Shown here in pieces: positions 13,152-35,304 of a stretch of 44,228 nucleotides of DNA. This DNA comes from Escherichia phage BUCT825. Where the stretch lies: the sequence record PV040721.1; one strand, given 5' to 3'. Each line of letters opens with the position of its first letter. Within the stretch, counting starts at the first letter, position 1. A model generated the notes under the pieces. It had not been told where the DNA came from. It did not search any database and worked only from the letters and a program-made list of their open reading frames with translations. Made by a program: the position numbers and the translations under genes.

Positions 13152-13367
13152 ATGGTTCGTAAATATGAAGCGCGAGGGACTGAATTAGGCGGGGACGCAT
13201 TCTACGAAGATTGGGTAGAGGTGGTTCGCTACGAAGATTACAAGGCGCTAAAGACCCATGCCGATGCTATGTGCGAGGCCATGTGTTTGTATGATTTGGG
13301 TGAACGTGTTAGTTTCGAGCCATACATAAATTATACTGAATGGCTGTTGAGTGAGGACGATGTATGA
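13152..13367 (+). CDS. hypothetical protein (71 aa)
   Basis: ATG with SD GGAGGGGG. Confidence 0.5.
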   Translation: MVRKYEARGTELGGDAFYEDWVEVVRYEDYKALKTHADAMCEAMCLYDLGERVSFEPYINYTEWLLSEDDV

Positions 13368-13657
13368 GCCTTGCAACTGACATCCTGAAACGCAGCGGCC
13401 TTGCGCCGCTGTCACCGAGAGCGAACACCAGAATACACAAGCGCCGCCGTAATGCGCTGTACCCGGAGATTCAGGACAGACGCAAAGCTGTCCGCGCCTG
13501 TGGATTCCAGAACGGGAAGGCCGTAAATCTCGGTGAGTTTAAAACACAGGAACGCGCAGCAATCGCTAACCGGTTATTTAATTACTGGAAATCGCTGGGG
13601 TACGATGATATTCCGACGAAACCGCAGAGACGACAATACATCTGGAGACACAAATGA
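13364..13657 (+). CDS. small basic protein with AP2-like DNA-binding signature (97 aa)
   Basis: NGKAVNLGEFKTQERAAIANRLF resembles the AP2/HNH-associated DNA-binding motif. Confidence 0.45.
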   Translation: MSLATDILKRSGLAPLSPRANTRIHKRRRNALYPEIQDRRKAVRACGFQNGKAVNLGEFKTQERAAIANRLFNYWKSLGYDDIPTKPQRRQYIWRHK

Positions 13658-14094
13658 CGACTATCGCGTTCGACGGAAAGACAATGGCCTGTGACACACG
13701 TGTTGTGTGCGGGGATAACTACTACAACACAGATACTAAGATATACGAAAACGATACTTATGTTATCGGGGTAGCGGGTGACGCTGGAGTTGGTACTATG
13801 CTTATCGACTGCCCGTATATCCTCCAGGCCAGACATTATGATTTTGATTTCGAGGCCCTAGTGTATGAGAAAGACGCGGAAAAGGTGTATAAAGTCGCGT
13901 TTTATAAATCATGGGATTGTGCACTTAGTTCAGTTATTCCGGTTGCCGATGCGTACGCTGCCGTTGGGTCCGGTTCCCCTTATGCACTGGCGGCTATGGA
14001 ATGTGGGTATTCGGCGCATGGCGGTGTAGCCGTTGCATCGAAGTTTGACACTAACACCGGCGGCAAGATTATTACCAAACAACTATTAGGATAA
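13654..14094 (+). CDS. HslV/proteasome-beta-like Ntn-hydrolase family protein (146 aa)
   Basis: N-terminus MTTIAFDG (Thr directly after Met, as in HslV MTTIV); GVAGDAG and VGSGSPYALAAM resemble HslV GFAGG and IGSGGPYAQAA; alignment done by eye. Confidence 0.5.
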   Translation: MTTIAFDGKTMACDTRVVCGDNYYNTDTKIYENDTYVIGVAGDAGVGTMLIDCPYILQARHYDFDFEALVYEKDAEKVYKVAFYKSWDCALSSVIPVADAYAAVGSGSPYALAAMECGYSAHGGVAVASKFDTNTGGKIITKQLLG

Positions 14095-14108
14095 TTCCTA
14101 ACCGTGCT

Positions 14109-14148
14109 ATCCTCCAGTTACTGCATACTTAACACGCACCTGGAGGAT
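14109..14148 (+). promoter_or_regulatory. RNA hairpin sequestering the holin Shine-Dalgarno (ATCCTCCAG ... CTGGAGGAT)
   Basis: 9-bp perfect inverted repeat; 3' arm contains the GGAGGA SD sitting 6 nt before the TTG start. Confidence 0.5.
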
Positions 14149-14153
14149 TCATC

Positions 14154-14462
14154 TTGGATAAATTTACTGAAACAGTGACGGGGTGGCTTCTCGCTGCCGC
14201 ACTGGTCGGTGGATTGGTCGGACTAAGACAACATAAAAAGTCTATATCCGGGCCGATTGACGGACTGGTATTTCTCCTCACCGGCTTCGCGTGTGCCATT
14301 TTCGGTGCACCTCTTGCTGCTCAATGGTTCGGTATTACCGGTGAGCGCGAGATAGCTGGCCTCGGATTCATCATTGCCATTCTCTGGATGCCTATCTATT
14401 CCCGCCTTTCTGGCATCGTATCGGGCGGCGATATTGCCCACCCAGGAGGACCGCATGACTGA
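14154..14462 (+). CDS. holin (102 aa, about 3 predicted TM segments), TTG start
   Basis: Hydrophobic segments LLAAALVGGLVGL, LVFLLTGFACAIFGAPLAA, LGFIIAILWMPIY; no in-frame ATG before the first TM; strong SD. Confidence 0.6.
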   Translation: MDKFTETVTGWLLAAALVGGLVGLRQHKKSISGPIDGLVFLLTGFACAIFGAPLAAQWFGITGEREIAGLGFIIAILWMPIYSRLSGIVSGGDIAHPGGPHD

Positions 14463-14727
14463 GCTATTCTGGTTTGTCGTAATGCTGGCAATGGGCGCTT
14501 CGTCCCTGTTCAACGTGTATAATGAACGCGTGGACGACGGGATATTCGGTCGGGTGCTCTATATCCTGTCCGCTATTGTCTGCGCCGCCGGATGTATTCA
14601 CCTGTTACAGGGCGGCATGTCACCTACGCTGCCCGAGACATTAATCACATTAGTTGCGCTGCGCCAGATTCGTCAGGCGTGGCTGTCGTACGGAGGGCAT
14701 AAGCGTGTCTCGAAACATTTCAGATAA
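14456..14727 (+). CDS. second small membrane protein (about 90 aa, 2 TM): holin/antiholin-like
   Basis: ATG at 14456 with SD AGGAGG, overlapping holin stop; TM segments FWFVVMLAMGASSLF and LYILSAIVCAAGCIHLL. Confidence 0.5.
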
Positions 14728-15238
14728 TGGACTTACCGCAGATAAGCTGCGCGAGGTTTTACACTACGACCCCGATACCGGAGTTTTTACATGGAAAGCT
14801 ACACGTGTGCACAATGCTCGGGCGGGAAGTGAGGCTGGCGCCAACCATTGTGCAGGCTATCGCTCCATAGCCTTCGGTGGGAAGCGGTACTTGGCGCATC
14901 GTCTCGCTTGGCTATACATGACAGGGGAATGGCCCAACTCCCTAATAGACCACATAAACGGCGATGGTCGTGATAATAGATTCTGTAATTTACGTGAAGC
15001 CAACAAATCCGAAAACGGATGCAACAAAGGGCCAAGAAAGGACAGCAAATCCGGTATTAAGAACGTTATGTGGCAGAAGCAACAAGGAGGATGGTACGTT
15101 CAATTAAAAATACATAAGATTAAGTATTTTTACGGATACTTTGCGGACCTAGAACTAGCCGCGCTAGTTGCCGAAGAAGCTAGAGAGAAGATACACGGGG
15201 TTTTCGCGAACCATAAATTACGGGAAGGTGCTTTATGA
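14654..15238 (+). CDS. HNH homing endonuclease with AP2-like domain (likely start GTG 14705)
   Basis: HRLAWLYMTGEWPNSLIDHINGDGRDNRFCNLREANKSEN (HNH); conserved N-terminal LTADKLREVLHYDPDTGVFTW; stop overlaps endolysin ATG (ATGA). Confidence 0.8.
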   Translation: MRCARFVRRGCRTEGISVSRNISDNGLTADKLREVLHYDPDTGVFTWKATRVHNARAGSEAGANHCAGYRSIAFGGKRYLAHRLAWLYMTGEWPNSLIDHINGDGRDNRFCNLREANKSENGCNKGPRKDSKSGIKNVMWQKQQGGWYVQLKIHKIKYFYGYFADLELAALVAEEAREKIHGVFANHKLREGAL

Positions 15239-15717
15239 GAAACATTAGCAACAATGGCATCAAATTCACCGCAGCGTTTGAGGGGTTCCGCGGAACTGCG
15301 TATCGTGCTACGCCAAATGAGAAGTACCTGACTATTGGGTACGGTCATTATGGGCCAGACGTAACGCCAGGCAAGACCATCACCCCGGGACAAGGCCTCC
15401 TGTTACTGAATCGTGATATGGCTAAGGCCGTAGCTGCGGTTGACGCAGCAGCGCACCATTCACTGACGCAGGCGCAGTTTGATGCTGTTTGCGACCTGGT
15501 CTATAACGCGGGCGCTGGCGTGATTGCTGCTACTACGGGCACGGGTAAGGCGCTGCGTTCTGGTGATATCACGACGCTGCGGGCTAAGCTGGCGCTGTTC
15601 ATCAACCAGAATGGTAAACCGTTACTTGGTCTGCGTCGCCGTACTGCGGGTCGTCTGGCGTTGTTCGACGGTAAACAGTGGCAGGAGGCGGAGGCTATCG
15701 GGAGGGCTGTTAAATGA
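15235..15717 (+). CDS. endolysin, GH24 (T4/lambda-type lysozyme), 160 aa
   Basis: FEGFRGTAYRATPNEKYLTIGYGH catalytic region resembling T4 lysozyme E...D...TIGIGH. Confidence 0.85.
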   Translation: MRNISNNGIKFTAAFEGFRGTAYRATPNEKYLTIGYGHYGPDVTPGKTITPGQGLLLLNRDMAKAVAAVDAAAHHSLTQAQFDAVCDLVYNAGAGVIAATTGTGKALRSGDITTLRAKLALFINQNGKPLLGLRRRTAGRLALFDGKQWQEAEAIGRAVK

Positions 15718-15843
15718 TGGACGAATACGAAGGCGTTTAGTAAACTTACATCACGCTGCTTGTGCTTGCATACTAAGCCCTGGTAAACCTGAAGCAGCAG
15801 CCCAGGCGGTGGAGACTGCGTAGGGTTCAGGGGCTTATGCCCG

Positions 15844-15874
15844 AAACCCGGACCGCGAATCCGGGTTTTATTTT
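15844..15874 (+). terminator. Intrinsic terminator (AAACCCGGA-CCGCGAA-TCCGGGTTT followed by TATTTT)
   Basis: Perfect stem plus U-rich tail downstream of endolysin. Confidence 0.7.
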
Positions 15875-15947
15875 ACCAATTGACACCTAAGACTAATCAG
15901 ACGATACTTAAATCACCTCCTGTTCCATCCCTCTGCTCTCCAGTTTT

Positions 15948-15979
15948 ATCCCGGCCCTGACCCAGCCGGGATTTTTTTT
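15948..15979 (+). terminator. Second intrinsic terminator (ATCCCGGC-CCTGACCCA-GCCGGGAT followed by TTTTTTT)
   Basis: 8-bp stem followed by T8 run. Confidence 0.75.
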
Positions 15980-16001
15980 ATCTGTTTTCTGTAATGACTA
16001 G

Positions 16002-16030
16002 TTGACTATTATCCTCGACCCTATTATATT
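16002..16030 (+). promoter_or_regulatory. sigma70-like promoter (-35 TTGACT, 17-bp spacer, -10 TATATT)
   Basis: TTGACTATTATCCTCGACCCTATTATATT upstream of the 16065 gene block. Confidence 0.55.
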
Positions 16031-16064
16031 TACTTCATCGACAACGAGAACGGAGTAGAGAGAA

Positions 16065-16262
16065 ATGGGCAACGTATCGACGATAGAAATAACCGAAGAA
16101 CTCGAAGTTAAATGTATCGCATCAGTTATAGGGAATGGTTCGGTGGAAAAACTACAGATGAGGGCTGCTGCGGGCTACATACGCAGGGCTAATAGCGCGC
16201 AGACTGATGTTTTACGTAAACGTTACCTCGTGAAAGCGTTAGAAATACTGGAGAATAACTAA
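16065..16262 (+). CDS. hypothetical protein (65 aa)
   Basis: ATG with SD GGAG. Confidence 0.5.
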   Translation: MGNVSTIEITEELEVKCIASVIGNGSVEKLQMRAAAGYIRRANSAQTDVLRKRYLVKALEILENN

Positions 16263-16411
16263 TGAAAATTACAGATATCGAAGCATTCAAAGACGCACAA
16301 CTGATGGCACGCATCGCCGTTAGCAACCTGAGCAACAGCATCCCAGCGGCTGCATTCTGGTTCGCCGCGATGCAGACACTGAAAGCAGCTTATGCAGGAG
16401 AGAAGAAATGA
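16262..16411 (+). CDS. hypothetical protein (49 aa)
   Basis: Manual translation MKITDIEAFKDAQLMARIAVSNLSNSIPAAAFWFAAMQTLKAAYAGEKK; start overlaps upstream stop. Confidence 0.4.
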   Translation: MKITDIEAFKDAQLMARIAVSNLSNSIPAAAFWFAAMQTLKAAYAGEKK

Positions 16412-18039: not shown

Positions 18040-18588
18040 ATGAAGCTGAAACTCAAGCAGCCATCACCAGAGGTGGTGCAAGCTGCACATGAAGAAGCTG
18101 TTAGCGCAAACCGTCGCCGTAAACGACCGCGCGGTAAACAGAGCCTTTATCAATCATCCCGTAATTCCGCCGCGTTGTGGGACCCGGACTATTGTGACGA
18201 ATTGATTCGTTTCTTCGACCGCACGTCGTGGGAGGCTATGCCGACCGGTGCGCACGGAGACTACAAAGCAGTCATTGCGGATAAACCGCCATCACTGGCT
18301 CGCTTCGCCTTACACATCGGTGTCACTATCCCGATTATTAAGCTGTGGCTGCGCGAGATTCCCTCATTTGCAGAAGCCTATGAAACGGCACAGGCGCTGG
18401 AAGAGGCGTATTTCACTGAGAATGGGGCCGCCGGTATCTCTGCTACGTTCGCCGCCGCTAAGCTGGGCCTTAGCAAAGAGAAACCAGTCGAATCCACCGA
18501 AGAAACAGCACCGACCGAGATTATTTTCAGTGTCGCGGAGCCTGTGGGTAAAATCGTAACAACGAATATGGGCGAGGTAGAGGAATGA
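18040..18588 (+). CDS. terminase small subunit (about 182 aa)
   Basis: Immediately upstream of and overlapping TerL; basic N-terminus, HTH-like PSLARFALHIGVTIPIIKLWL, acidic C-terminus; ATG at 18040 with GGGG SD. Confidence 0.6.
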   Translation: MKLKLKQPSPEVVQAAHEEAVSANRRRKRPRGKQSLYQSSRNSAALWDPDYCDELIRFFDRTSWEAMPTGAHGDYKAVIADKPPSLARFALHIGVTIPIIKLWLREIPSFAEAYETAQALEEAYFTENGAAGISATFAAAKLGLSKEKPVESTEETAPTEIIFSVAEPVGKIVTTNMGEVEE

Positions 18589-19835
18589 GTATTCAGCTAT
18601 CCGCACCACAGGCGCTGTTCCTGAATTGCGACAATAAATATAAAGCCTATGTCGGGGGCTTCGGCAGCGGAAAGACATTTGTCGGCTGTCTGGACCTGCT
18701 TACGTTTATGCTCAAGCACCCCGGTACGCGCCTGGGCTACTTCGGCCCGACCTATCCCGCCATCCGTGACATCTTCTACCCAACATTCGAGGAAGCGGCT
18801 AACCTGCTCGGCCTTGATGTGCTGGTTAAATCCGGCGACAAAGAAGTCGTGGTTACTCGCGGTAAGACGGTGCTCGGGACCGTTATCTGCCGCTCTATGG
18901 ATAACCCCGGCTCGATTGTGGGTTTCAAAATCGCCGCAGCATGCGTGGATGAGCTCGATGTATTGAGCCGCGAGAAAGCCGAGCTGGCGTGGAACAAAAT
19001 TGTGGCCCGTATGCGTCTGGTTATCCCGGGTGTAACTAACCACATCTCTGTTACCACGACGCCGGAAGGGTTCAAGTTCGTCTACGCCAAGTTCAAAGAG
19101 AATCCGACGCCAAGTTACTCGATGGTTCAGGCTTCTACACACGAGAACGCGCGATTTCTGCCCCCGGACTACATTAGCTCACTGACCGAGACTTATCCCG
19201 CGCAACTGATTAACGCGTATCTGAACGGTGAGTTCGTCAACCTTACCTCCGGCAGCGTGTACTACGCATACGACCGACGCAAACATCGCAGCAAAGAGAC
19301 AATTCAACCGGGCGACACGCTGTACATCGGCCAGGACTTCAACGTTACGAAGAACGCCAGCGCCGTATATGTGCAGCGTAAAGACGGCTGGCACGCGGTG
19401 GCAGAACTGAAAGGCCTGTTTGATACGCCAGACACCGTGCGTGTAATTACTGAGAAGTGGAAGTCGCAGGACCACCGCATAGTCGTTTACCCGGACGCCA
19501 GCGGCAAGAACCGCAAAACCAACTCGGCATCAATCTCAGATATTGCGTTACTCCAGCAGGCCGGGTTCGATGTTCGCGCTAAATCCGCCAACCCCCCGGT
19601 TAAAGACCGTGTTTTAGCCGTGAATACCGCGCTGGAAAAAGGTAAGCTGTGGGTTAACGACCACTTATGCCCCGAGATAGCGAAGACGCTGGAGCAGCAG
19701 GCATACGACGATAACGGAGAGCCAGCTAAAGACGGCATCATTGACCATATGGCGGATGCTCTCGGCTATCCGGTAGTTTACGAGATGCCGGTGGTTAAAC
19801 CAGTAATCAACATCCCGGTGACTTTCGCACTTTAA
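18585..19835 (+). CDS. terminase large subunit (416 aa)
   Basis: Walker A GGFGSGKT, Walker B AACVDELD, C-terminal nuclease-like region. Confidence 0.85.
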   Translation: MSIQLSAPQALFLNCDNKYKAYVGGFGSGKTFVGCLDLLTFMLKHPGTRLGYFGPTYPAIRDIFYPTFEEAANLLGLDVLVKSGDKEVVVTRGKTVLGTVICRSMDNPGSIVGFKIAAACVDELDVLSREKAELAWNKIVARMRLVIPGVTNHISVTTTPEGFKFVYAKFKENPTPSYSMVQASTHENARFLPPDYISSLTETYPAQLINAYLNGEFVNLTSGSVYYAYDRRKHRSKETIQPGDTLYIGQDFNVTKNASAVYVQRKDGWHAVAELKGLFDTPDTVRVITEKWKSQDHRIVVYPDASGKNRKTNSASISDIALLQQAGFDVRAKSANPPVKDRVLAVNTALEKGKLWVNDHLCPEIAKTLEQQAYDDNGEPAKDGIIDHMADALGYPVVYEMPVVKPVINIPVTFAL

Positions 19836-32253: not shown

Positions 32254-32673
32254 ATGAAACTTTCTGATTTTTATTTCGAAGAGAAAGCACTGGTGGGCAA
32301 GAAGATGCCGATTCTCCTGCCGAATGGTGAAGACTCAGGGGAGTGGCTTAACGTTGTAAGCCCTGATGCGGATGCCGCCGTTAAAGCGGGGCGTGCGTTC
32401 ATTATTGCGTACCGTAGAGGGTTGGCACGTTTCGAAGAACTGGAAAAAGCCGCCAAAGACTCCGGCGACTATACTGAATATAACCTGGCAGTTAACGAAC
32501 TGGCGGAAGACCTCAACAGGCAACTTGCGGCAGAAGTCGTAAACGGCTGGAGCTTTGACGACGAGCCTTTCTCTAAGGAAGCGTTCAACAAATTGCTCGA
32601 CCAGTTCAAAGGTCTTGGAACCCAGGTTGCGGCGTTCCATAACGCCGAGCGCAAAGCATTACAGGAAAAGTAG
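32254..32673 (+). CDS. tail assembly chaperone (gpG-like position), 139 aa
   Basis: Acidic helical protein immediately upstream of tape measure region. Confidence 0.55.
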   Translation: MKLSDFYFEEKALVGKKMPILLPNGEDSGEWLNVVSPDADAAVKAGRAFIIAYRRGLARFEELEKAAKDSGDYTEYNLAVNELAEDLNRQLAAEVVNGWSFDDEPFSKEAFNKLLDQFKGLGTQVAAFHNAERKALQEK

Positions 32674-32705
32674 ACGCGCTGTACAGGTTCGCCACCTACG
32701 AGTTT

Positions 32706-33038
32706 GTGGATAAGCATAAAATCAGAGAGTTCGATTCTATAGCTGACGGGCACGAACAGGCGCTTATCGCGATGGGTGTAATCGATAAGAAAAAACGTGC
32801 AGCGCGAAGGGGTGGGCCAGAATGCCCGCCCCTTTTTATATCCACCTTTGAGACGTACTGTGATATTAAGTTTACGCGACACGTGCGCGAGGACGCTGTA
32901 GTATTGTTCGCAAGAGAATCCGTTACGTGGCAAGACCTGAAAGCCTATCTCGATGTTACGCAAAAACAGCTTAGCCTGTTCGAGATAGACATTATCATGG
33001 GCTTAGAAGCAATCTTTGAAGGTAGAAATCATGGCTGA
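32706..33038 (+). CDS. possible tail assembly chaperone extension (gpT-like position); start uncertain
   Basis: ORF in the -1 frame relative to the chaperone gene, overlapping TMP start; no canonical slippery heptamer found. Confidence 0.3.
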   Translation: MDKHKIREFDSIADGHEQALIAMGVIDKKKRAARRGGPECPPLFISTFETYCDIKFTRHVREDAVVLFARESVTWQDLKAYLDVTQKQLSLFEIDIIMGLEAIFEGRNHG

Positions 33039-35304
33039 TACCGCTAGCTTGATAGTACGAGTATCATCGACCGGCGTCGATAAAACAACATCACAACTGA
33101 ACGGGCTTACTAAAGCCGCAGGCGCTGCGGCTGCCGCCGTTGTCAGCCTGGAAACCGCTAAGCAGGTGTTCAGTGCACTGGTGGACTCCCAGCGCAACTT
33201 CGATAAGCTGAACTCCGGCCTCATCACAATGACCGGGAGCGCCGAGAACGCGGCTAAGGCTTTCAGCGTACTGCAGCAATTCGCAAAAGAAACCCCGTAC
33301 GGCCTCAATCAGGCGGTCGAGGGCTTCACTAAACTCGTAGCTCTTGGGCTAAACCCCGGCAAAGAGGCATTAATCTCCTACGGCAACACCGCGGCTGCTA
33401 TGGGTAAAGACCTTAATCAGATGATTGAGGCAGTTGCCGACGCCAGTACCTTTGAGTTTGAGCGACTAAAAGAGTTCGGCATCAAGTCGTCGCAACAGGC
33501 GGATACAGTTTCGTTCACGTTCCGCGGCGTAACGACCACGGTTAAAAAGAACTCCGAAGAGATTCAGAAATACCTGTTAAACATCGGCAACACCGATTTT
33601 GCCGGAGCGATGGAGACACGCTCTAAGACGCTAGACGGTCAGTTATCGAGCCTCGCCGACTCCTTCGATGGTCTTGTTCTTGCGGTAGCGCAATCCGGTT
33701 TTGGTGACGCGGTAGGCGAACAAGCGGCAACAGCGGAAGATGCTATTACAGCGCTCACCGACGCTATAGCGTCTAATGAGATAGCCGCCACGCTCCAGGA
33801 CTGGACGACACTGTTCAATGAGTCGTTCAAGTTTATTTCTGACGCCTTGAACGACCTGGCATATGACACCGAGGACAAATCCTCGGATATGTCCGACTCG
33901 CTGGGTACTATACCGGATGCTATCCGTGAGTGGCTGCCCGACATCCAGCAGACATTCCACGAGGTTATTGCGTGGTTCCAGCGCATTGACGATTACGCCG
34001 TAGCGTTAGGACAGACCCTTGCCGACGTGTTTGACCCGAGCAAAACGGCGGCGCTCACATTTAAAAACCTGACCGCAGAGGCCGACGCCGCATACGCCGC
34101 CAGCATAAAACGCGCAGAGGCGGAATCACAGGCCATTACAGACAGGTCTAAGCAGCGTAAGAAAGAAATTGAGGAACAGCGCAAGCAGTACGACGAGCGC
34201 AAGAAGCAAGAAATTGACTTAGCCCGCCTTGTTAATAAAAAGGGTGGAACTGGCAGCACCGGAAACGCCGACGATAAAGCAGCAAAAGCCGCCGCCAAGA
34301 AAGCAGAACAATTGCGGAATCAGGCGCAAGATTACCTCGACACTTTGGCCCGCCAGAACAACGATGAGTTAAAGGCTATCGACGCGCAGGAACAGCAGAA
34401 ACTGGCTAAGGCAAAAGAGTTCTACAGCCAGGGCGCGCTGTCACTGAAAGAATACGAGCAAGCAAAAACGGCTATTGTCCTAGAAGCAGGGCAAAAACGA
34501 CAAGATGAACTGGATAAACGCCAGAAAGAAGCCCAGGAAAAGCAACAGAAAGGTGACGACTTCATGGCTCAGATTATGGGCCAGAACGCTACTGAGCTTG
34601 AGCTTCTCGACATCCAGGAACAGCAGAAACTGGCGGTAGCGGATAAGTACCGCGAGCAGGGTTTGATTAGCGAGAAGCAGTATCAGGCCGCTCTTAACGC
34701 CATCAACGAGCAATACGCAACCAAGCGTGCCGATGCAACGGCAACGGCCTTTGGTAACATGGCCTCAAACATCGGGTCTGCGTTGGGTGAGGCTTCTGGC
34801 GCGTACAAGGCATTTGCTATCGTACAGGCCACCATAGCCACGTACACCGCGGCTATCGAGGCGTACAAGTCCACGGCGGCTATCCCCGTAGTTGGCCCGT
34901 TCCTGGCCCCTGTAGCCGCTGCCGCTGCCGTTGGTGCAGGTATGGCGCAGGTTTCCGCTATCCGGTCCGCGCGTGAACAGGGCGGACAGTTATCCGCAGG
35001 GCAGGCTTCCACCATCGCAGAACGCGGTAAACCGGAAGTTATCATGCCAGCGGGGGCATCGCGTGTTCGCACCGCACAGCAGATGAAAGAAATTATGGGG
35101 CAAAACGGGTCTTCTTCCGGCCCGTCTAATGTTACTATCGTAAACAACACGAGTTCTCAAATCGGCAACGTATCCACCGAGCAAGATGATGAAGGCCGTT
35201 TGCGTATCATCATCGAGGAGCAAGTTGCCGCATCTTTGCAGAACAGCAACAGTAAGATTAGCAAGGCCAGAAAGGCCACAAGAAACGCGCCGGGGTTTAA
35301 ATAA
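33031..35304 (+). CDS. tail tape measure protein (about 757 aa)
   Basis: Long Ala/Gln/Lys-rich coiled-coil protein with internal repeats and Gly-rich C-terminal region; ATG 33031 with SD GAAGGTAG. Confidence 0.8.
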   Translation: MADTASLIVRVSSTGVDKTTSQLNGLTKAAGAAAAAVVSLETAKQVFSALVDSQRNFDKLNSGLITMTGSAENAAKAFSVLQQFAKETPYGLNQAVEGFTKLVALGLNPGKEALISYGNTAAAMGKDLNQMIEAVADASTFEFERLKEFGIKSSQQADTVSFTFRGVTTTVKKNSEEIQKYLLNIGNTDFAGAMETRSKTLDGQLSSLADSFDGLVLAVAQSGFGDAVGEQAATAEDAITALTDAIASNEIAATLQDWTTLFNESFKFISDALNDLAYDTEDKSSDMSDSLGTIPDAIREWLPDIQQTFHEVIAWFQRIDDYAVALGQTLADVFDPSKTAALTFKNLTAEADAAYAASIKRAEAESQAITDRSKQRKKEIEEQRKQYDERKKQEIDLARLVNKKGGTGSTGNADDKAAKAAAKKAEQLRNQAQDYLDTLARQNNDELKAIDAQEQQKLAKAKEFYSQGALSLKEYEQAKTAIVLEAGQKRQDELDKRQKEAQEKQQKGDDFMAQIMGQNATELELLDIQEQQKLAVADKYREQGLISEKQYQAALNAINEQYATKRADATATAFGNMASNIGSALGEASGAYKAFAIVQATIATYTAAIEAYKSTAAIPVVGPFLAPVAAAAAVGAGMAQVSAIRSAREQGGQLSAGQASTIAERGKPEVIMPAGASRVRTAQQMKEIMGQNGSSSGPSNVTIVNNTSSQIGNVSTEQDDEGRLRIIIEEQVAASLQNSNSKISKARKATRNAPGFK
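34387..34634 (+). repeat. In-frame direct repeat in TMP gene: 20-bp exact copies CAGGAACAGCAGAAACTGGC at 34387-34406 and 34615-34634
   Basis: Copies 228 bp (76 codons) apart; encode repeated QEQQKLA peptide. Confidence 0.8.

What the first reader, a model, noticed from the sequence alone, without database searches (positions are those of the whole stretch)
14654..15238. Free-standing HNH homing endonuclease inserted between holin genes and endolysin
A clear HNH motif (HRLAWLYMTGEWPNSLIDHINGDGRDNRFCNLREANKSEN) and AP2-like DNA-binding region lie in a gene wedged into the lysis cassette. It has a non-ATG start, and its stop overlaps the endolysin ATG. Homing endonuclease genes are mobile; insertion at this spot could influence endolysin expression.
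Basis: partly seen in the sequence, partly recalled or inferred. Interest (0 to 1): 0.5.

Follow-up and report, generated by a model that had tools for sequence, protein, structure and literature searches.

The report
Mobile HNH endonuclease at endolysin start
A selfish, mobile nuclease gene sits at the very start of this E. coli phage's cell-wall-lysis gene, borrowing that gene's start signal and supplying a replacement; this is an ordinary kind of phage element, already labelled in close relatives, but with an unusually clear anatomy.

Summary
The window is a Kagunavirus-like coliphage genome. Between its second holin gene and its endolysin gene lies an ORF for an HNH (HNN-type) nuclease domain followed by an AP2-like DNA-binding domain. 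The stop overlaps the endolysin ATG (ATGA, 15235-15238).

Comparative data support a mobile homing-endonuclease cassette:
- The closest genome (XY1, 95% identical) has an empty site.
- Only about 35 of 483 GenBank records with this endolysin are occupied.
- The cassette is 100% identical over 575 nt to a metagenomic Kagunavirus whose flanks are only 80-84% identical.
- It is 98% identical to Salmonella Jerseyvirus copies whose flanks are 50-73% identical.
- dN/dS is 0.03-0.08.
- A second HNH lineage, a chimera, a frameshifted copy and an in-frame deletion remnant occupy the same site in other phages.

One refinement: the gene is not strictly intergenic. It lies inside the endolysin's 5' end. 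It uses the endolysin's original ribosome-binding site, GTG and first nine codons, which also encode the holin C-terminus. Its own 3' end supplies a new SD, an ATG and donor-type codons 2-10 for the endolysin.

Nuclease activity and homing remain untested. This is a known kind of element, of modest interest.

The parts
14154..14462 (+). Holin gene 1 of the lysis cassette (upstream context)
   Evidence: phrog_2359 holin, E=3.7e-32. Annotated as holin in relatives.
14455..14727 (+). Holin gene 2. Its last 23 nt, including the stop TAA at 14725-14727, overlap the start of the HNH ORF. In empty alleles they overlap the start of the endolysin.
   Evidence: phrog_2508 holin, E=2.7e-34. The same 23-nt overlap with the endolysin is seen in CR01, K1ind3 and XY1. 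Stop position checked.
14693..14698 (+). Shine-Dalgarno GGAGGG, 6 nt upstream of GTG 14705. It serves the endolysin in empty alleles and now serves the HNH ORF.
   Evidence: Sequence. The identical SD-GTG context precedes the endolysin in CR01, K1ind3, XY1 and 28 IMG/VR empty alleles.
14705..15238 (+). HNH-AP2 endonuclease ORF: GTG start, 177 aa, stop TGA at 15236-15238
14705..14730 (+). Borrowed leader: the original endolysin start codon and codons 2-9 (VSRNISDNG), which also encode the holin-2 C-terminus in another frame. This part is host-genome sequence, not cassette.
   Evidence: 25-26 of 26 nt identical to empty Kagunavirus alleles. The family consensus N-terminus starts only at 'LT..L.E.L.YDP.TG.FTW'. 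This is the least variable 20-nt block within +-250 nt among 28 empty alleles.
14732..15264 (+). The inserted cassette relative to the empty allele of phage XY1 (533 nt replacing 6 nt). The borders are uncertain by 1-3 nt because of microhomology.
   Evidence: blastn of the window against the whole XY1 genome. Junction alignments.
14698..15272 (+). 575-nt tract with zero mismatches to IMG/VR Kagunavirus contig L050. It is flanked on both sides by roughly 1 mismatch per 6-7 nt.
   Evidence: mismatch positions. (holin 80%, HNH 504/504, endolysin 84%).
14888..15019 (+). HNH_3 (HNN-type His-Me finger) nuclease domain, aa 62-105. Boxes: HRLAW, WP, D82-H83, DNR, N95-LRE, E-N104.
   Evidence: Pfam match. 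Invariant columns D82, H83, N95, N104, N107 in a 42-sequence alignment. The same boxes are described for phage HNN-AP2 enzymes in PMC2248197.
15053..15205 (+). AP2-like DNA-binding domain, aa ~117-167 (three beta-strands followed by a helix)
15222..15230 (+). Replacement Shine-Dalgarno (GGGAAGGTG) for the endolysin, carried inside the last codons of the HNH ORF
   Evidence: Sequence. Retained in the Bas73/L007 deletion remnant.
15235..15264 (+). New endolysin ATG plus codons 2-10 of Jerseyvirus type (MRNISNNGIK), a donor flank carried in with the cassette
   Evidence: 29 of 30 nt identical to SETP13 and 30 of 30 to L050 and Bas73. Kagunavirus empty alleles read VSRNISDNGLH here. HNH-less Jerseyvirus alleles naturally read ...RNISNNGIKF.
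15235..15717 (+). Endolysin (T4-lysozyme-like muramidase)
   Evidence: Pfam Phage_lysozyme, 95 bits. phrog_7 and phrog_33703 endolysin.

Best explanation
This is a free-standing homing-endonuclease gene (HEG) cassette of the phage HNN-AP2 class, lodged at the 5' end of the endolysin gene.

Shown:
- The 533-nt cassette (about 14732-15264) begins 4-5 nt after the stop codon of the second holin.
- The holin's last 23 nt overlap the endolysin's first codons. The HNH ORF therefore starts at the endolysin's own SD and GTG and reads through the endolysin's first nine codons before entering the nuclease proper.
- The cassette's 3' end carries a new SD, a new ATG (ATGA overlap with the HNH stop) and a donor-type copy of endolysin codons 2-10, so the endolysin stays intact.
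- The site is occupied sporadically. The cassette is far more similar between genomes than its flanks are.

Inferred:
- The enzyme is made late, together with the lysis genes.
- In a mixed infection it nicks or cuts the HNH-less allele in or near the highly conserved holin/endolysin overlap.
- Recombinational repair from the HNH-bearing genome then copies in the cassette with short flanking tracts.
- The Jerseyvirus-type endolysin codons in this Kagunavirus would have arrived that way.
- Because the cassette's 3' end now holds the endolysin's only start signals, decay leaves an in-frame mini-ORF (as in Bas73) rather than clean loss.
For: Identity and fold:
- Pfam HNH_3 and phrog_99.
- Model pLDDT 89.
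- Catalytic D82-H83, N95 and N104 are invariant.

Insertion polymorphism:
- XY1, the closest genome (95% over 88% of window 1-25000), has an empty site. The cassette replaces 6 nt there.
- Of 483 GenBank records with the homologous endolysin, 17 carry this HNH full-length, 2 carry a remnant and 16 carry a second HNH type.
- 44 of 52 IMG/VR loci are empty.

Lateral movement:
- Against L050: HNH body 504/504 and zero mismatches across 14698-15272, while the holin is 80% and the endolysin 84% identical.
- Against Salmonella phage SETP13: HNH 98%, holin 50%, endolysin 73%.

Flank carried in with the cassette: endolysin codons 2-10 are Jerseyvirus-type in a Kagunavirus background.

Functional constraint: dN/dS is 0.03 (8 synonymous, 1 non-synonymous) against SETP13 and 0.08 against ZCEC5.

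Stages of an HEG life cycle at the same site:
- Type B HNH, 50-55% aa identical.
- A/B chimera in S102.
- Frameshifted type B in L057.
- 417-nt in-frame deletion in Bas73, Bas74 and L007 that keeps the SD and the ATGA junction.

Generality: relatives 69-80% identical (P0002, P0004, P0006) all sit directly upstream of a Phage_lysozyme gene and use the local endolysin start region.

Target conservation: the dual-coding overlap is the least variable 20-nt block within +-250 nt of the start among 28 empty alleles.

Not an intron: there are no Rfam intron hits, and the HNH has its own stop while the endolysin has its own start.
Against: - No cleavage, nicking or super-Mendelian inheritance has been shown for this protein or any close relative. 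I found no paper on it.
- The target site is unknown.
- The downstream endolysin copy is a natural Jerseyvirus variant, not evidence of recoding for self-immunity. How the occupied genome escapes its own enzyme is therefore open.
- The identity discontinuities prove recombination at these borders. They do not prove that the HNH initiated it.
- The AP2 assignment fails Pfam's threshold for this protein and otherwise rests on a predicted structure.
Confidence: 0.8

Rival explanations
1. The gene is a passively shuffled accessory gene. It moves between co-infecting Guernseyvirinae by ordinary homologous recombination through the conserved lysis-gene flanks. Its nuclease serves the phage in another way (for example degrading host or competitor DNA, or excluding rival phages) rather than promoting its own copying.
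For: - The identity discontinuities show only that recombination occurred at these borders.
- Other indels, such as the HslV-like peptidase gene at 13656-14076, are also present or absent among relatives without being nucleases.
- Strong purifying selection fits a function useful to the phage.
- An intron endonuclease acting in competition between phages has been reported (PMC11620839, abstract seen).
Against: - Domain architecture and fold match characterised homing endonucleases.
- The cassette has no promoter, terminator or start of its own, and it sits on the most conserved block of an essential operon.
- Two HNH lineages, a chimera and decayed copies occupy the same site. That is the pattern expected of HEG invasion and decay.
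- Only about 7% occupancy argues against a generally useful function.
Confidence: 0.12
2. The ORF is an inactive relic: a former homing endonuclease that no longer cuts. It persists only because its 3' end supplies the endolysin's ribosome-binding site and start codon.
For: - The Bas73/L007 remnant shows that only the first 26 and last 12 codons of the ORF are needed for a viable phage.
- L057 carries a frameshifted type B copy.
Against: - The ORF is full-length with all family-invariant residues.
- dN/dS of 0.03-0.08 across the whole body is not expected of a relic.
- The 100%-identical copy in a divergent background indicates very recent spread.
Confidence: 0.05
3. It is a packaging-associated HNH protein that works with the terminase, or it is encoded in an intron or intein within the endolysin gene.
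For: - HNH proteins are known components of some phage packaging machines (Kala et al. 2014, cited in PMC9825357).
- The closest structural match, I-HmuI, is intron-encoded.
Against: - The gene is absent from the closest genome and from about 93% of relatives, so it is not a core packaging factor.
- It is not next to the terminase genes. By the XY1 map they lie about 2.8 kb downstream, with several small genes between.
- Rfam finds no intron.
- The HNH ORF ends in a stop, and the endolysin restarts with its own SD, ATG and a full set of N-terminal codons. No splicing is needed or possible without duplicating residues.
Confidence: 0.02

Closest known systems
The same gene in Salmonella Jerseyvirus phages (SETP13, SETP7, AG11, SB3, STP03, 'pink') and in E. 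coli phage ZCEC5
   Same: 96-98% nucleotide identity. Same position between the class I holin and the endolysin. Annotated in GenBank as 'HNH endonuclease' or 'HNH homing endonuclease'.
   Different: - Here it sits in a Kagunavirus (E. coli) background whose holin is only about 50% and endolysin about 73% identical to the Jerseyvirus ones.
- The leader is the local GTG-SRNISDNG, not ATG-PNRNISDNG.
- SETP13 has a 1-nt deletion near the 3' end, which changes the C-terminus and the overlap with the endolysin.
- None has been characterised experimentally, as far as my searches show.
Phage HNN-AP2 free-standing endonucleases (Xanthomonas phages Xp10, OP1 and Xop411; also T1, Rtp, T5, RB16 and RB43), described in PMC2248197
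   Same: Same two-domain architecture and the same sequence boxes (HRLAW.., WP, D-H, DNR, NLRE, EN), with no Cys dyads. They are sporadically distributed and show decayed copies.
   Different: Those authors found no conserved flanks and proposed sequence-independent spread. Here the site is fixed (the endolysin start), the flanks are conserved, and empty and occupied alleles can be aligned to the nucleotide.
I-HmuI (Bacillus phage SPO1), PDB 1U3E
   Different: I-HmuI is encoded inside a group I intron of the DNA polymerase gene, and its C-terminal DNA-binding module is not an AP2 domain. Sequence identity is only 17-20%.
Intron-less homing by free-standing T4 endonucleases (SegB, PMC2330249; mobE, PMC2790892; review PMC2988022)
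   Same: A free-standing HEG lies next to or within essential genes. It spreads by cleavage of the HEG-less genome and gene conversion that carries flanking markers along (abstracts).
   Different: From my own knowledge, the T4 elements are intergenic genes with their own expression signals. This cassette has no start of its own: it takes the target gene's start and supplies a substitute. SegB is a GIY-YIG enzyme, not HNH.

Membership tests
HNH / His-Me finger endonuclease, HNN subclass (Pfam HNH_3) | Sequence match to the family profile above the curated threshold | tested here: met
   PF13392 HNH_3: 53.1 bits against a cut-off of 24.8, E=2.5e-14, aa 62-105. phrog_99: E=1.3e-69.
HNH / His-Me finger endonuclease, HNN subclass (Pfam HNH_3) | Catalytic Asp-His pair and the conserved Asn residues are present | tested here: met
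   D82, H83, N95, N104 and N107 are invariant in a 42-sequence alignment. The boxes match those listed for HNN-AP2 enzymes in PMC2248197.
HNH / His-Me finger endonuclease, HNN subclass (Pfam HNH_3) | beta-beta-alpha-metal fold | tested here: met
HNH / His-Me finger endonuclease, HNN subclass (Pfam HNH_3) | Metal-dependent DNA nicking or cleavage | not testable with these tools
   Needs purified protein and substrate DNA.
AP2 DNA-binding domain | Sequence match to Pfam AP2 above the gathering score | tested here: not met
   19.4 bits (E=0.0014) for aa 115-177 alone and 15.6 bits for the whole protein, against a cut-off of 33.3. Many homologues do carry a precomputed PF00847 call.
AP2 DNA-binding domain | Three-stranded antiparallel sheet packed on a C-terminal helix | tested here: met
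Free-standing homing endonuclease gene | Presence/absence polymorphism at one fixed site among close relatives | tested here: met
   XY1 has an empty site. About 35 of 483 GenBank records are occupied. 8 of 52 IMG/VR loci are occupied or carry a remnant.
Free-standing homing endonuclease gene | The element is much more similar between genomes than its flanks are, and flanking markers are carried along | tested here: met
   A 575-nt identical tract against flanks of 80-84% identity (L050). 98% against 50% and 73% (SETP13). Jerseyvirus-type endolysin codons 2-10 in a Kagunavirus.
Free-standing homing endonuclease gene | Not embedded in an intron or intein | tested here: met
   No Rfam intron match at E<=1. 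The HNH ORF has its own stop, and the endolysin has its own SD and ATG.
Free-standing homing endonuclease gene | Site-specific cleavage of the element-less allele, and nuclease-dependent over-inheritance in mixed infection | not testable with these tools
   Requires in vitro cleavage mapping and phage crosses.
Packaging-associated HNH (terminase partner) | Conserved in the lineage and encoded next to the terminase genes | tested here: not met
   Absent from the closest genome and most relatives. By alignment to the XY1 annotation, the terminase genes lie about 2.8 kb downstream.

The most novel reading that the evidence does not exclude
The cassette may be a 'start-swap' homing element. It has no translation start of its own. 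Wherever it lands it takes over the endolysin's ribosome-binding site and start codon, plus any codons that double as the C-terminus of the upstream gene. In exchange it supplies a replacement start inside its own last codons.

That would make its 3' end indispensable for lysis, a form of addiction. Decay would then leave a short in-frame leader ORF that still couples translation into the endolysin (Bas73, Bas74, L007), not an empty site. The swap could also retune the amount or timing of endolysin synthesis (GTG to ATG, new SD, coupling to a different upstream ORF).

The anatomy is shown in four lineages. The dependence of endolysin expression on the leader ORF, and any effect on lysis timing, are not shown.
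Probability: 0.35. Interest if true: 0.5.

Novelty: new member of a known kind. Interest (0 to 1): 0.3.

Why it matters
On its own this is a routine phage feature: an HNH-AP2 homing-type endonuclease that is already annotated in near-identical form in Salmonella phages.

Its value is as a clean natural example. Empty, occupied, chimeric, frameshifted and deleted alleles of one site are all available in sequenced phages, some of them cultured (XY1, K1ind3, Bas73, SETP13, DUEC01). The cassette has recently crossed between phages of Salmonella and E. coli.

Homing, co-conversion tract length and the cost or benefit to lysis timing would therefore be directly testable. For annotators, two practical points follow:
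- The long TTG-initiated ORF is probably a mis-call.
- The 38-codon remnant in Bas73 is annotated in the wrong frame.

Tried and rejected
1. I first read the downstream endolysin 5' copy (AGA AAC ATT AGC AAC AAT GGC ATC AAA) as de novo recoding that protects the occupied genome from its own enzyme. I rejected this. HNH-less Jerseyvirus alleles naturally carry this sequence (L043, L044, L046, L058), so it is a donor flank.
2. A sequence search of the PDB gave only chance-level hits (best E=0.16). The link to I-HmuI and AP2 appears only at the fold level.
3. No paralogue of the HNH gene exists elsewhere in the window (tblastn).
4. The promoter/terminator scan found no terminator-like site in 13300-16300. 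One weak promoter-like match inside the ORF (14786-14815, 9 of 12) is within chance expectation. The cassette appears to have no transcription signals of its own.
5. The Rfam scan of 14000-16100 found no group I or II intron. It gave only two sub-threshold sRNA hits at 15924-15979.
6. RNA folding of the translation-initiation regions was inconclusive. P(unpaired) for the endolysin SD is 0.13 in the window, against 0.23 for XY1's endolysin SD and 0.35 for the HNH SD.
7. Literature searches found only generic mentions of accessory homing endonucleases in Jerseyvirus genomes (PMC8425127). Nothing describes this site's anatomy. Most subscription-journal papers are outside the library, so absence is not proof.
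8. I considered a packaging role and intron or intein encoding and rejected both (see rivals).

Full report
WHAT IS THERE

The window is a complete or nearly complete genome of a Kagunavirus-like siphophage (Guernseyvirinae). Its best match is E. coli phage vB_EcoS_XY1, 95% identical over 88% of window 1-25000.

Around the finding lies a lysis cassette:
- an HslV-like peptidase gene (13654-14094)
- holin 1 (14154-14462, phrog_2359)
- holin 2 (14455-14727, phrog_2508)
- the ORF in question
- a T4-lysozyme-type endolysin (15235-17, i.e. 15235-15717; Pfam Phage_lysozyme, 95 bits)

The ORF contains the quoted HNH motif. It scores 53.1 bits on Pfam HNH_3 (cut-off 24.8) and E=1.3e-69 on PHROG 99, 'HNH endonuclease'. 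Its stop overlaps the endolysin ATG as ATGA at 15235-15238.

START CODON

That codon has no ribosome-binding site. In-frame GTG 14705 is preceded by GGAGGG at 14693-14698. In HNH-less relatives exactly this SD-GTG is the annotated start of the endolysin (CR01, K1ind3, XY1). In phage DUEC01 it is the annotated start of an HNH gene at the same place. I therefore place the gene at 14705-15238 (177 aa). The start is still non-ATG.

THE PROTEIN

A homology search found 5,242 relatives at E<=1e-5. Many carry both HNH_3 and AP2 Pfam calls. In a 42-sequence alignment D82, H83, N95, N104 and N107 are invariant. The boxes HRLAW / WP / DH / DNR / NLRE / EN are those described for phage 'HNN-AP2' endonucleases (PMC2248197).

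Pfam AP2 itself is below threshold for this protein (19.4 bits against 33.3). An AlphaFold2 model (pLDDT 89, pTM 0.79) gives the following matches:

ANATOMY OF THE INSERTION

Empty alleles read as follows, where the embedded TAA is the holin-2 stop:

...GGAGGGCATAAGC GTG TCT CGA AAC ATT TCA GAT AAT GGR YTG CAT TTC ACC GC... (VSRNISDNGLHFTA...)

In the window the same sequence runs to GATAATGG and then continues ACTTACCGCAGAT..., which is the HNH body. At the far end comes ...CGGGAAGGTGCTTT ATG AGA AAC ATT AGC AAC AAT GGC ATC AAA TTC ACC GC....

Against the whole XY1 genome, the cassette is window 14732-15264. That is 533 nt replacing 6 nt. Three points follow.
1. The HNH ORF uses the endolysin's original SD, GTG and first nine codons. 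The family's native N-terminus begins only at 'LT..L.E.L.YDP.TG.FTW'.
2. These borrowed codons are the ones that overlap the holin-2 C-terminus. The left junction lies 4-5 nt after the holin stop.
3. The cassette's last codons contain a new SD and ATG for the endolysin, followed by a second copy of endolysin codons 2-10.

I first took that second copy for protective recoding. HNH-less Jerseyvirus endolysins naturally read ATG TCA AAC CGA AAC ATT AGC AAC AAC GGC ATC AAA TTC ACC. It is therefore a donor flank that travelled with the cassette into a Kagunavirus background.

EVIDENCE FOR MOBILITY

- Occupancy. Of 483 GenBank phage records with a homologous endolysin, 17 carry this 'type A' HNH full-length at 96-97% identity. 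They are mostly Salmonella Jerseyvirus, plus E. coli phage ZCEC5. Two records carry a remnant and 16 carry a different 'type B' HNH. Of 52 Guernseyvirinae-like IMG/VR loci, 44 are empty.
- Identity discontinuity. Against IMG/VR contig L050 (Kagunavirus), holin 2 is 80% identical, the HNH body 504/504, the endolysin 5' copy 30/30 and the next 186 nt 84%. There are no mismatches at all from 14698 to 15272 (575 nt), flanked by roughly one mismatch per 6-7 nt. Against Salmonella phage SETP13 the figures are holin 50%, HNH 98% and endolysin 73%.
- Selection. dN/dS is 0.03 against SETP13 (8 synonymous, 1 non-synonymous) and 0.08 against ZCEC5. It is 0.04 for type B, S102 against DUEC01.
- Life-cycle stages at the same site:
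  - Type B (50-55% aa identity) has the same architecture and its own donor-type endolysin 5' end, MRSMSDNGLKF.
  - The S102 gene is a chimera. Nt 1-87 are type A (4 mismatches to SETP13, 31 to DUEC01). Nt 88-500 are type B.
  - L057 has a 1-nt frameshift in type B. This is either a pseudogene or an assembly error.
  - Bas73, Bas74 and L007 carry a 417-nt in-frame deletion between GTTTT microhomologies. It leaves a 38-codon ORF (VSRNISDNGLTADKLREVLHYDPDTGVFANHKLREGAL*) that keeps the SD and the ATGA junction.
- Generality. More distant type-A relatives (80%, 74% and 69% aa identity) are all encoded directly upstream of a Phage_lysozyme gene. Each uses the local endolysin start region.
  - In L092 the upstream gene does not overlap the endolysin. 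The HNH begins with its native M-LTAS at the endolysin's SD-ATG, and a near-duplicate SD-ATG follows the HNH (compare empty L055).
  - In L090 the junction lies immediately after the holin stop embedded in endolysin codon 7 (compare empty L049).
- Target conservation. Among 28 empty Kagunavirus alleles, the 20 nt starting at the GTG (the dual-coding overlap) is the least variable 20-nt block within +-250 nt. It has 0.061 bits mean entropy and 2 variable sites. Homing endonucleases typically exploit slowly evolving sequence of this kind.

MECHANISM

Shown: the architecture, the polymorphism, the recombination borders, the hitch-hiking flank and the purifying selection.

Inferred:
- The enzyme is translated late from the lysis transcript. 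No promoter or terminator of its own was detected.
- It nicks or cuts HNH-less genomes in or near the holin/endolysin overlap during mixed infection.
- Repair from the occupied genome copies in the cassette.
- By analogy with I-HmuI (my own knowledge) the enzyme may be a nickase.

Whether the new start context changes endolysin output is untested. Predicted RNA structures are inconclusive.

ALTERNATIVES

- A passively recombining accessory nuclease with another role cannot be excluded without experiments (confidence about 0.12).
- An inactive relic is unlikely, given the selection and the very recent spread.
- A packaging role is contradicted by the gene's absence from most relatives and its distance from the terminase genes.
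- Intron or intein encoding is contradicted by the lack of any Rfam intron hit and by the separate stop and start codons.

KNOWN OR NEW

The gene is essentially identical to ones already annotated 'HNH (homing) endonuclease' in Jerseyvirus records. The HNN-AP2 class is well described in phages. Papers on Jerseyvirus note accessory homing endonucleases only in passing (PMC8425127).

I found no description of the takeover of the endolysin start, the cross-genus transfer or the remnant ORF. The searchable library is incomplete, so this is not proof of absence.

VERDICT

This is a new member of a known kind. The finding is correct and of modest interest (0.3). Its main value is as a well-resolved, experimentally tractable example.

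Noticed in passing
window 13654-14094 (indel 13656-14076): The HslV-like peptidase gene just upstream of the holins (phrog_1040, E=6e-35; Pfam Proteasome is sub-threshold) is itself a flush presence/absence polymorphism. It is absent from XY1, K1ind3, DUEC01 (L005), L009, L024 and L050. It is present in CR01 and Bas73.
   Followed up: partly
L006 (phage Bas73) 1501-1617; also L007 1388-1504: The HNH deletion remnant is a 38-codon ORF in the HNH frame that ends in ATGA with the endolysin start. GenBank annotates a different frame (Bas73_0071, locus 1523-1627, 'MDLPQISCARF...'), which starts at the out-of-frame ATG inside GATAATGGAC.
   Followed up: partly
L057 about 1000-1510: A type B HNH copy has a 1-nt deletion (CCTAAAGG-ACTG against CCTAAAGGGACTG in S102) that breaks the ORF after about 64 codons. 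This is either a decaying element or a metagenome assembly error.
   Followed up: no
L004 (Salmonella phage S102) 1992-2510: The annotated homing endonuclease is a chimera. Its first ~81-87 nt are type A (SETP13-like) and the rest is type B. The switch falls at the conserved DPDTG-FTW motif.
   Followed up: yes
L003 (SETP13) about 2010-2037, against window 15220-15238: Jerseyvirus copies of the HNH have a 1-nt deletion (CGGG-AGGTGCTAT against CGGGAAGGTGCTTT). This changes the last residues (..LREVLYEKH* against ..LREGAL*) and lengthens the overlap with the endolysin from 4 to 14 nt.
   Followed up: no
window 15718-15880 and 15924-15979: About 160 nt downstream of the endolysin is missing from several relatives (DUEC01, Bas73, L009). 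It ends in a GC-rich hairpin plus T-run (AAACCCGGA-CCGCGAA-TCCGGGTTTTATTTT, about 15844-15874) that the terminator scan did not call. A TTGACA promoter-like site follows at 15880-15908. Two sub-threshold Rfam sRNA hits lie at 15924-15979.
   Followed up: no
Alignment A1, proteins P0007-P0044 (about 255-300 aa): Many homologues are about 90-100 residues longer. They carry an N-terminal, degenerate copy of the 'YDP.TG.FTW ... HRLAW ... DH.NG' module ahead of the intact HNH-AP2 unit, i.e. an internal tandem duplication.
   Followed up: no
window 18471-19187, 32415-33176, 33592-34450: These segments have no blastn match to the otherwise 90-99% identical XY1 genome. The first falls in the terminase region by the XY1 map. 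The others fall in the tape-measure and tail region. They may be mosaic replacements.
   Followed up: no
window lysis cassette 14154-15717: No spanin genes follow the endolysin. In the XY1 annotation the i-/o-spanin pair lies far away among the head genes (XY1 18367-18862). That corresponds to window around 23.2-23.8 kb by the alignment.
   Followed up: no
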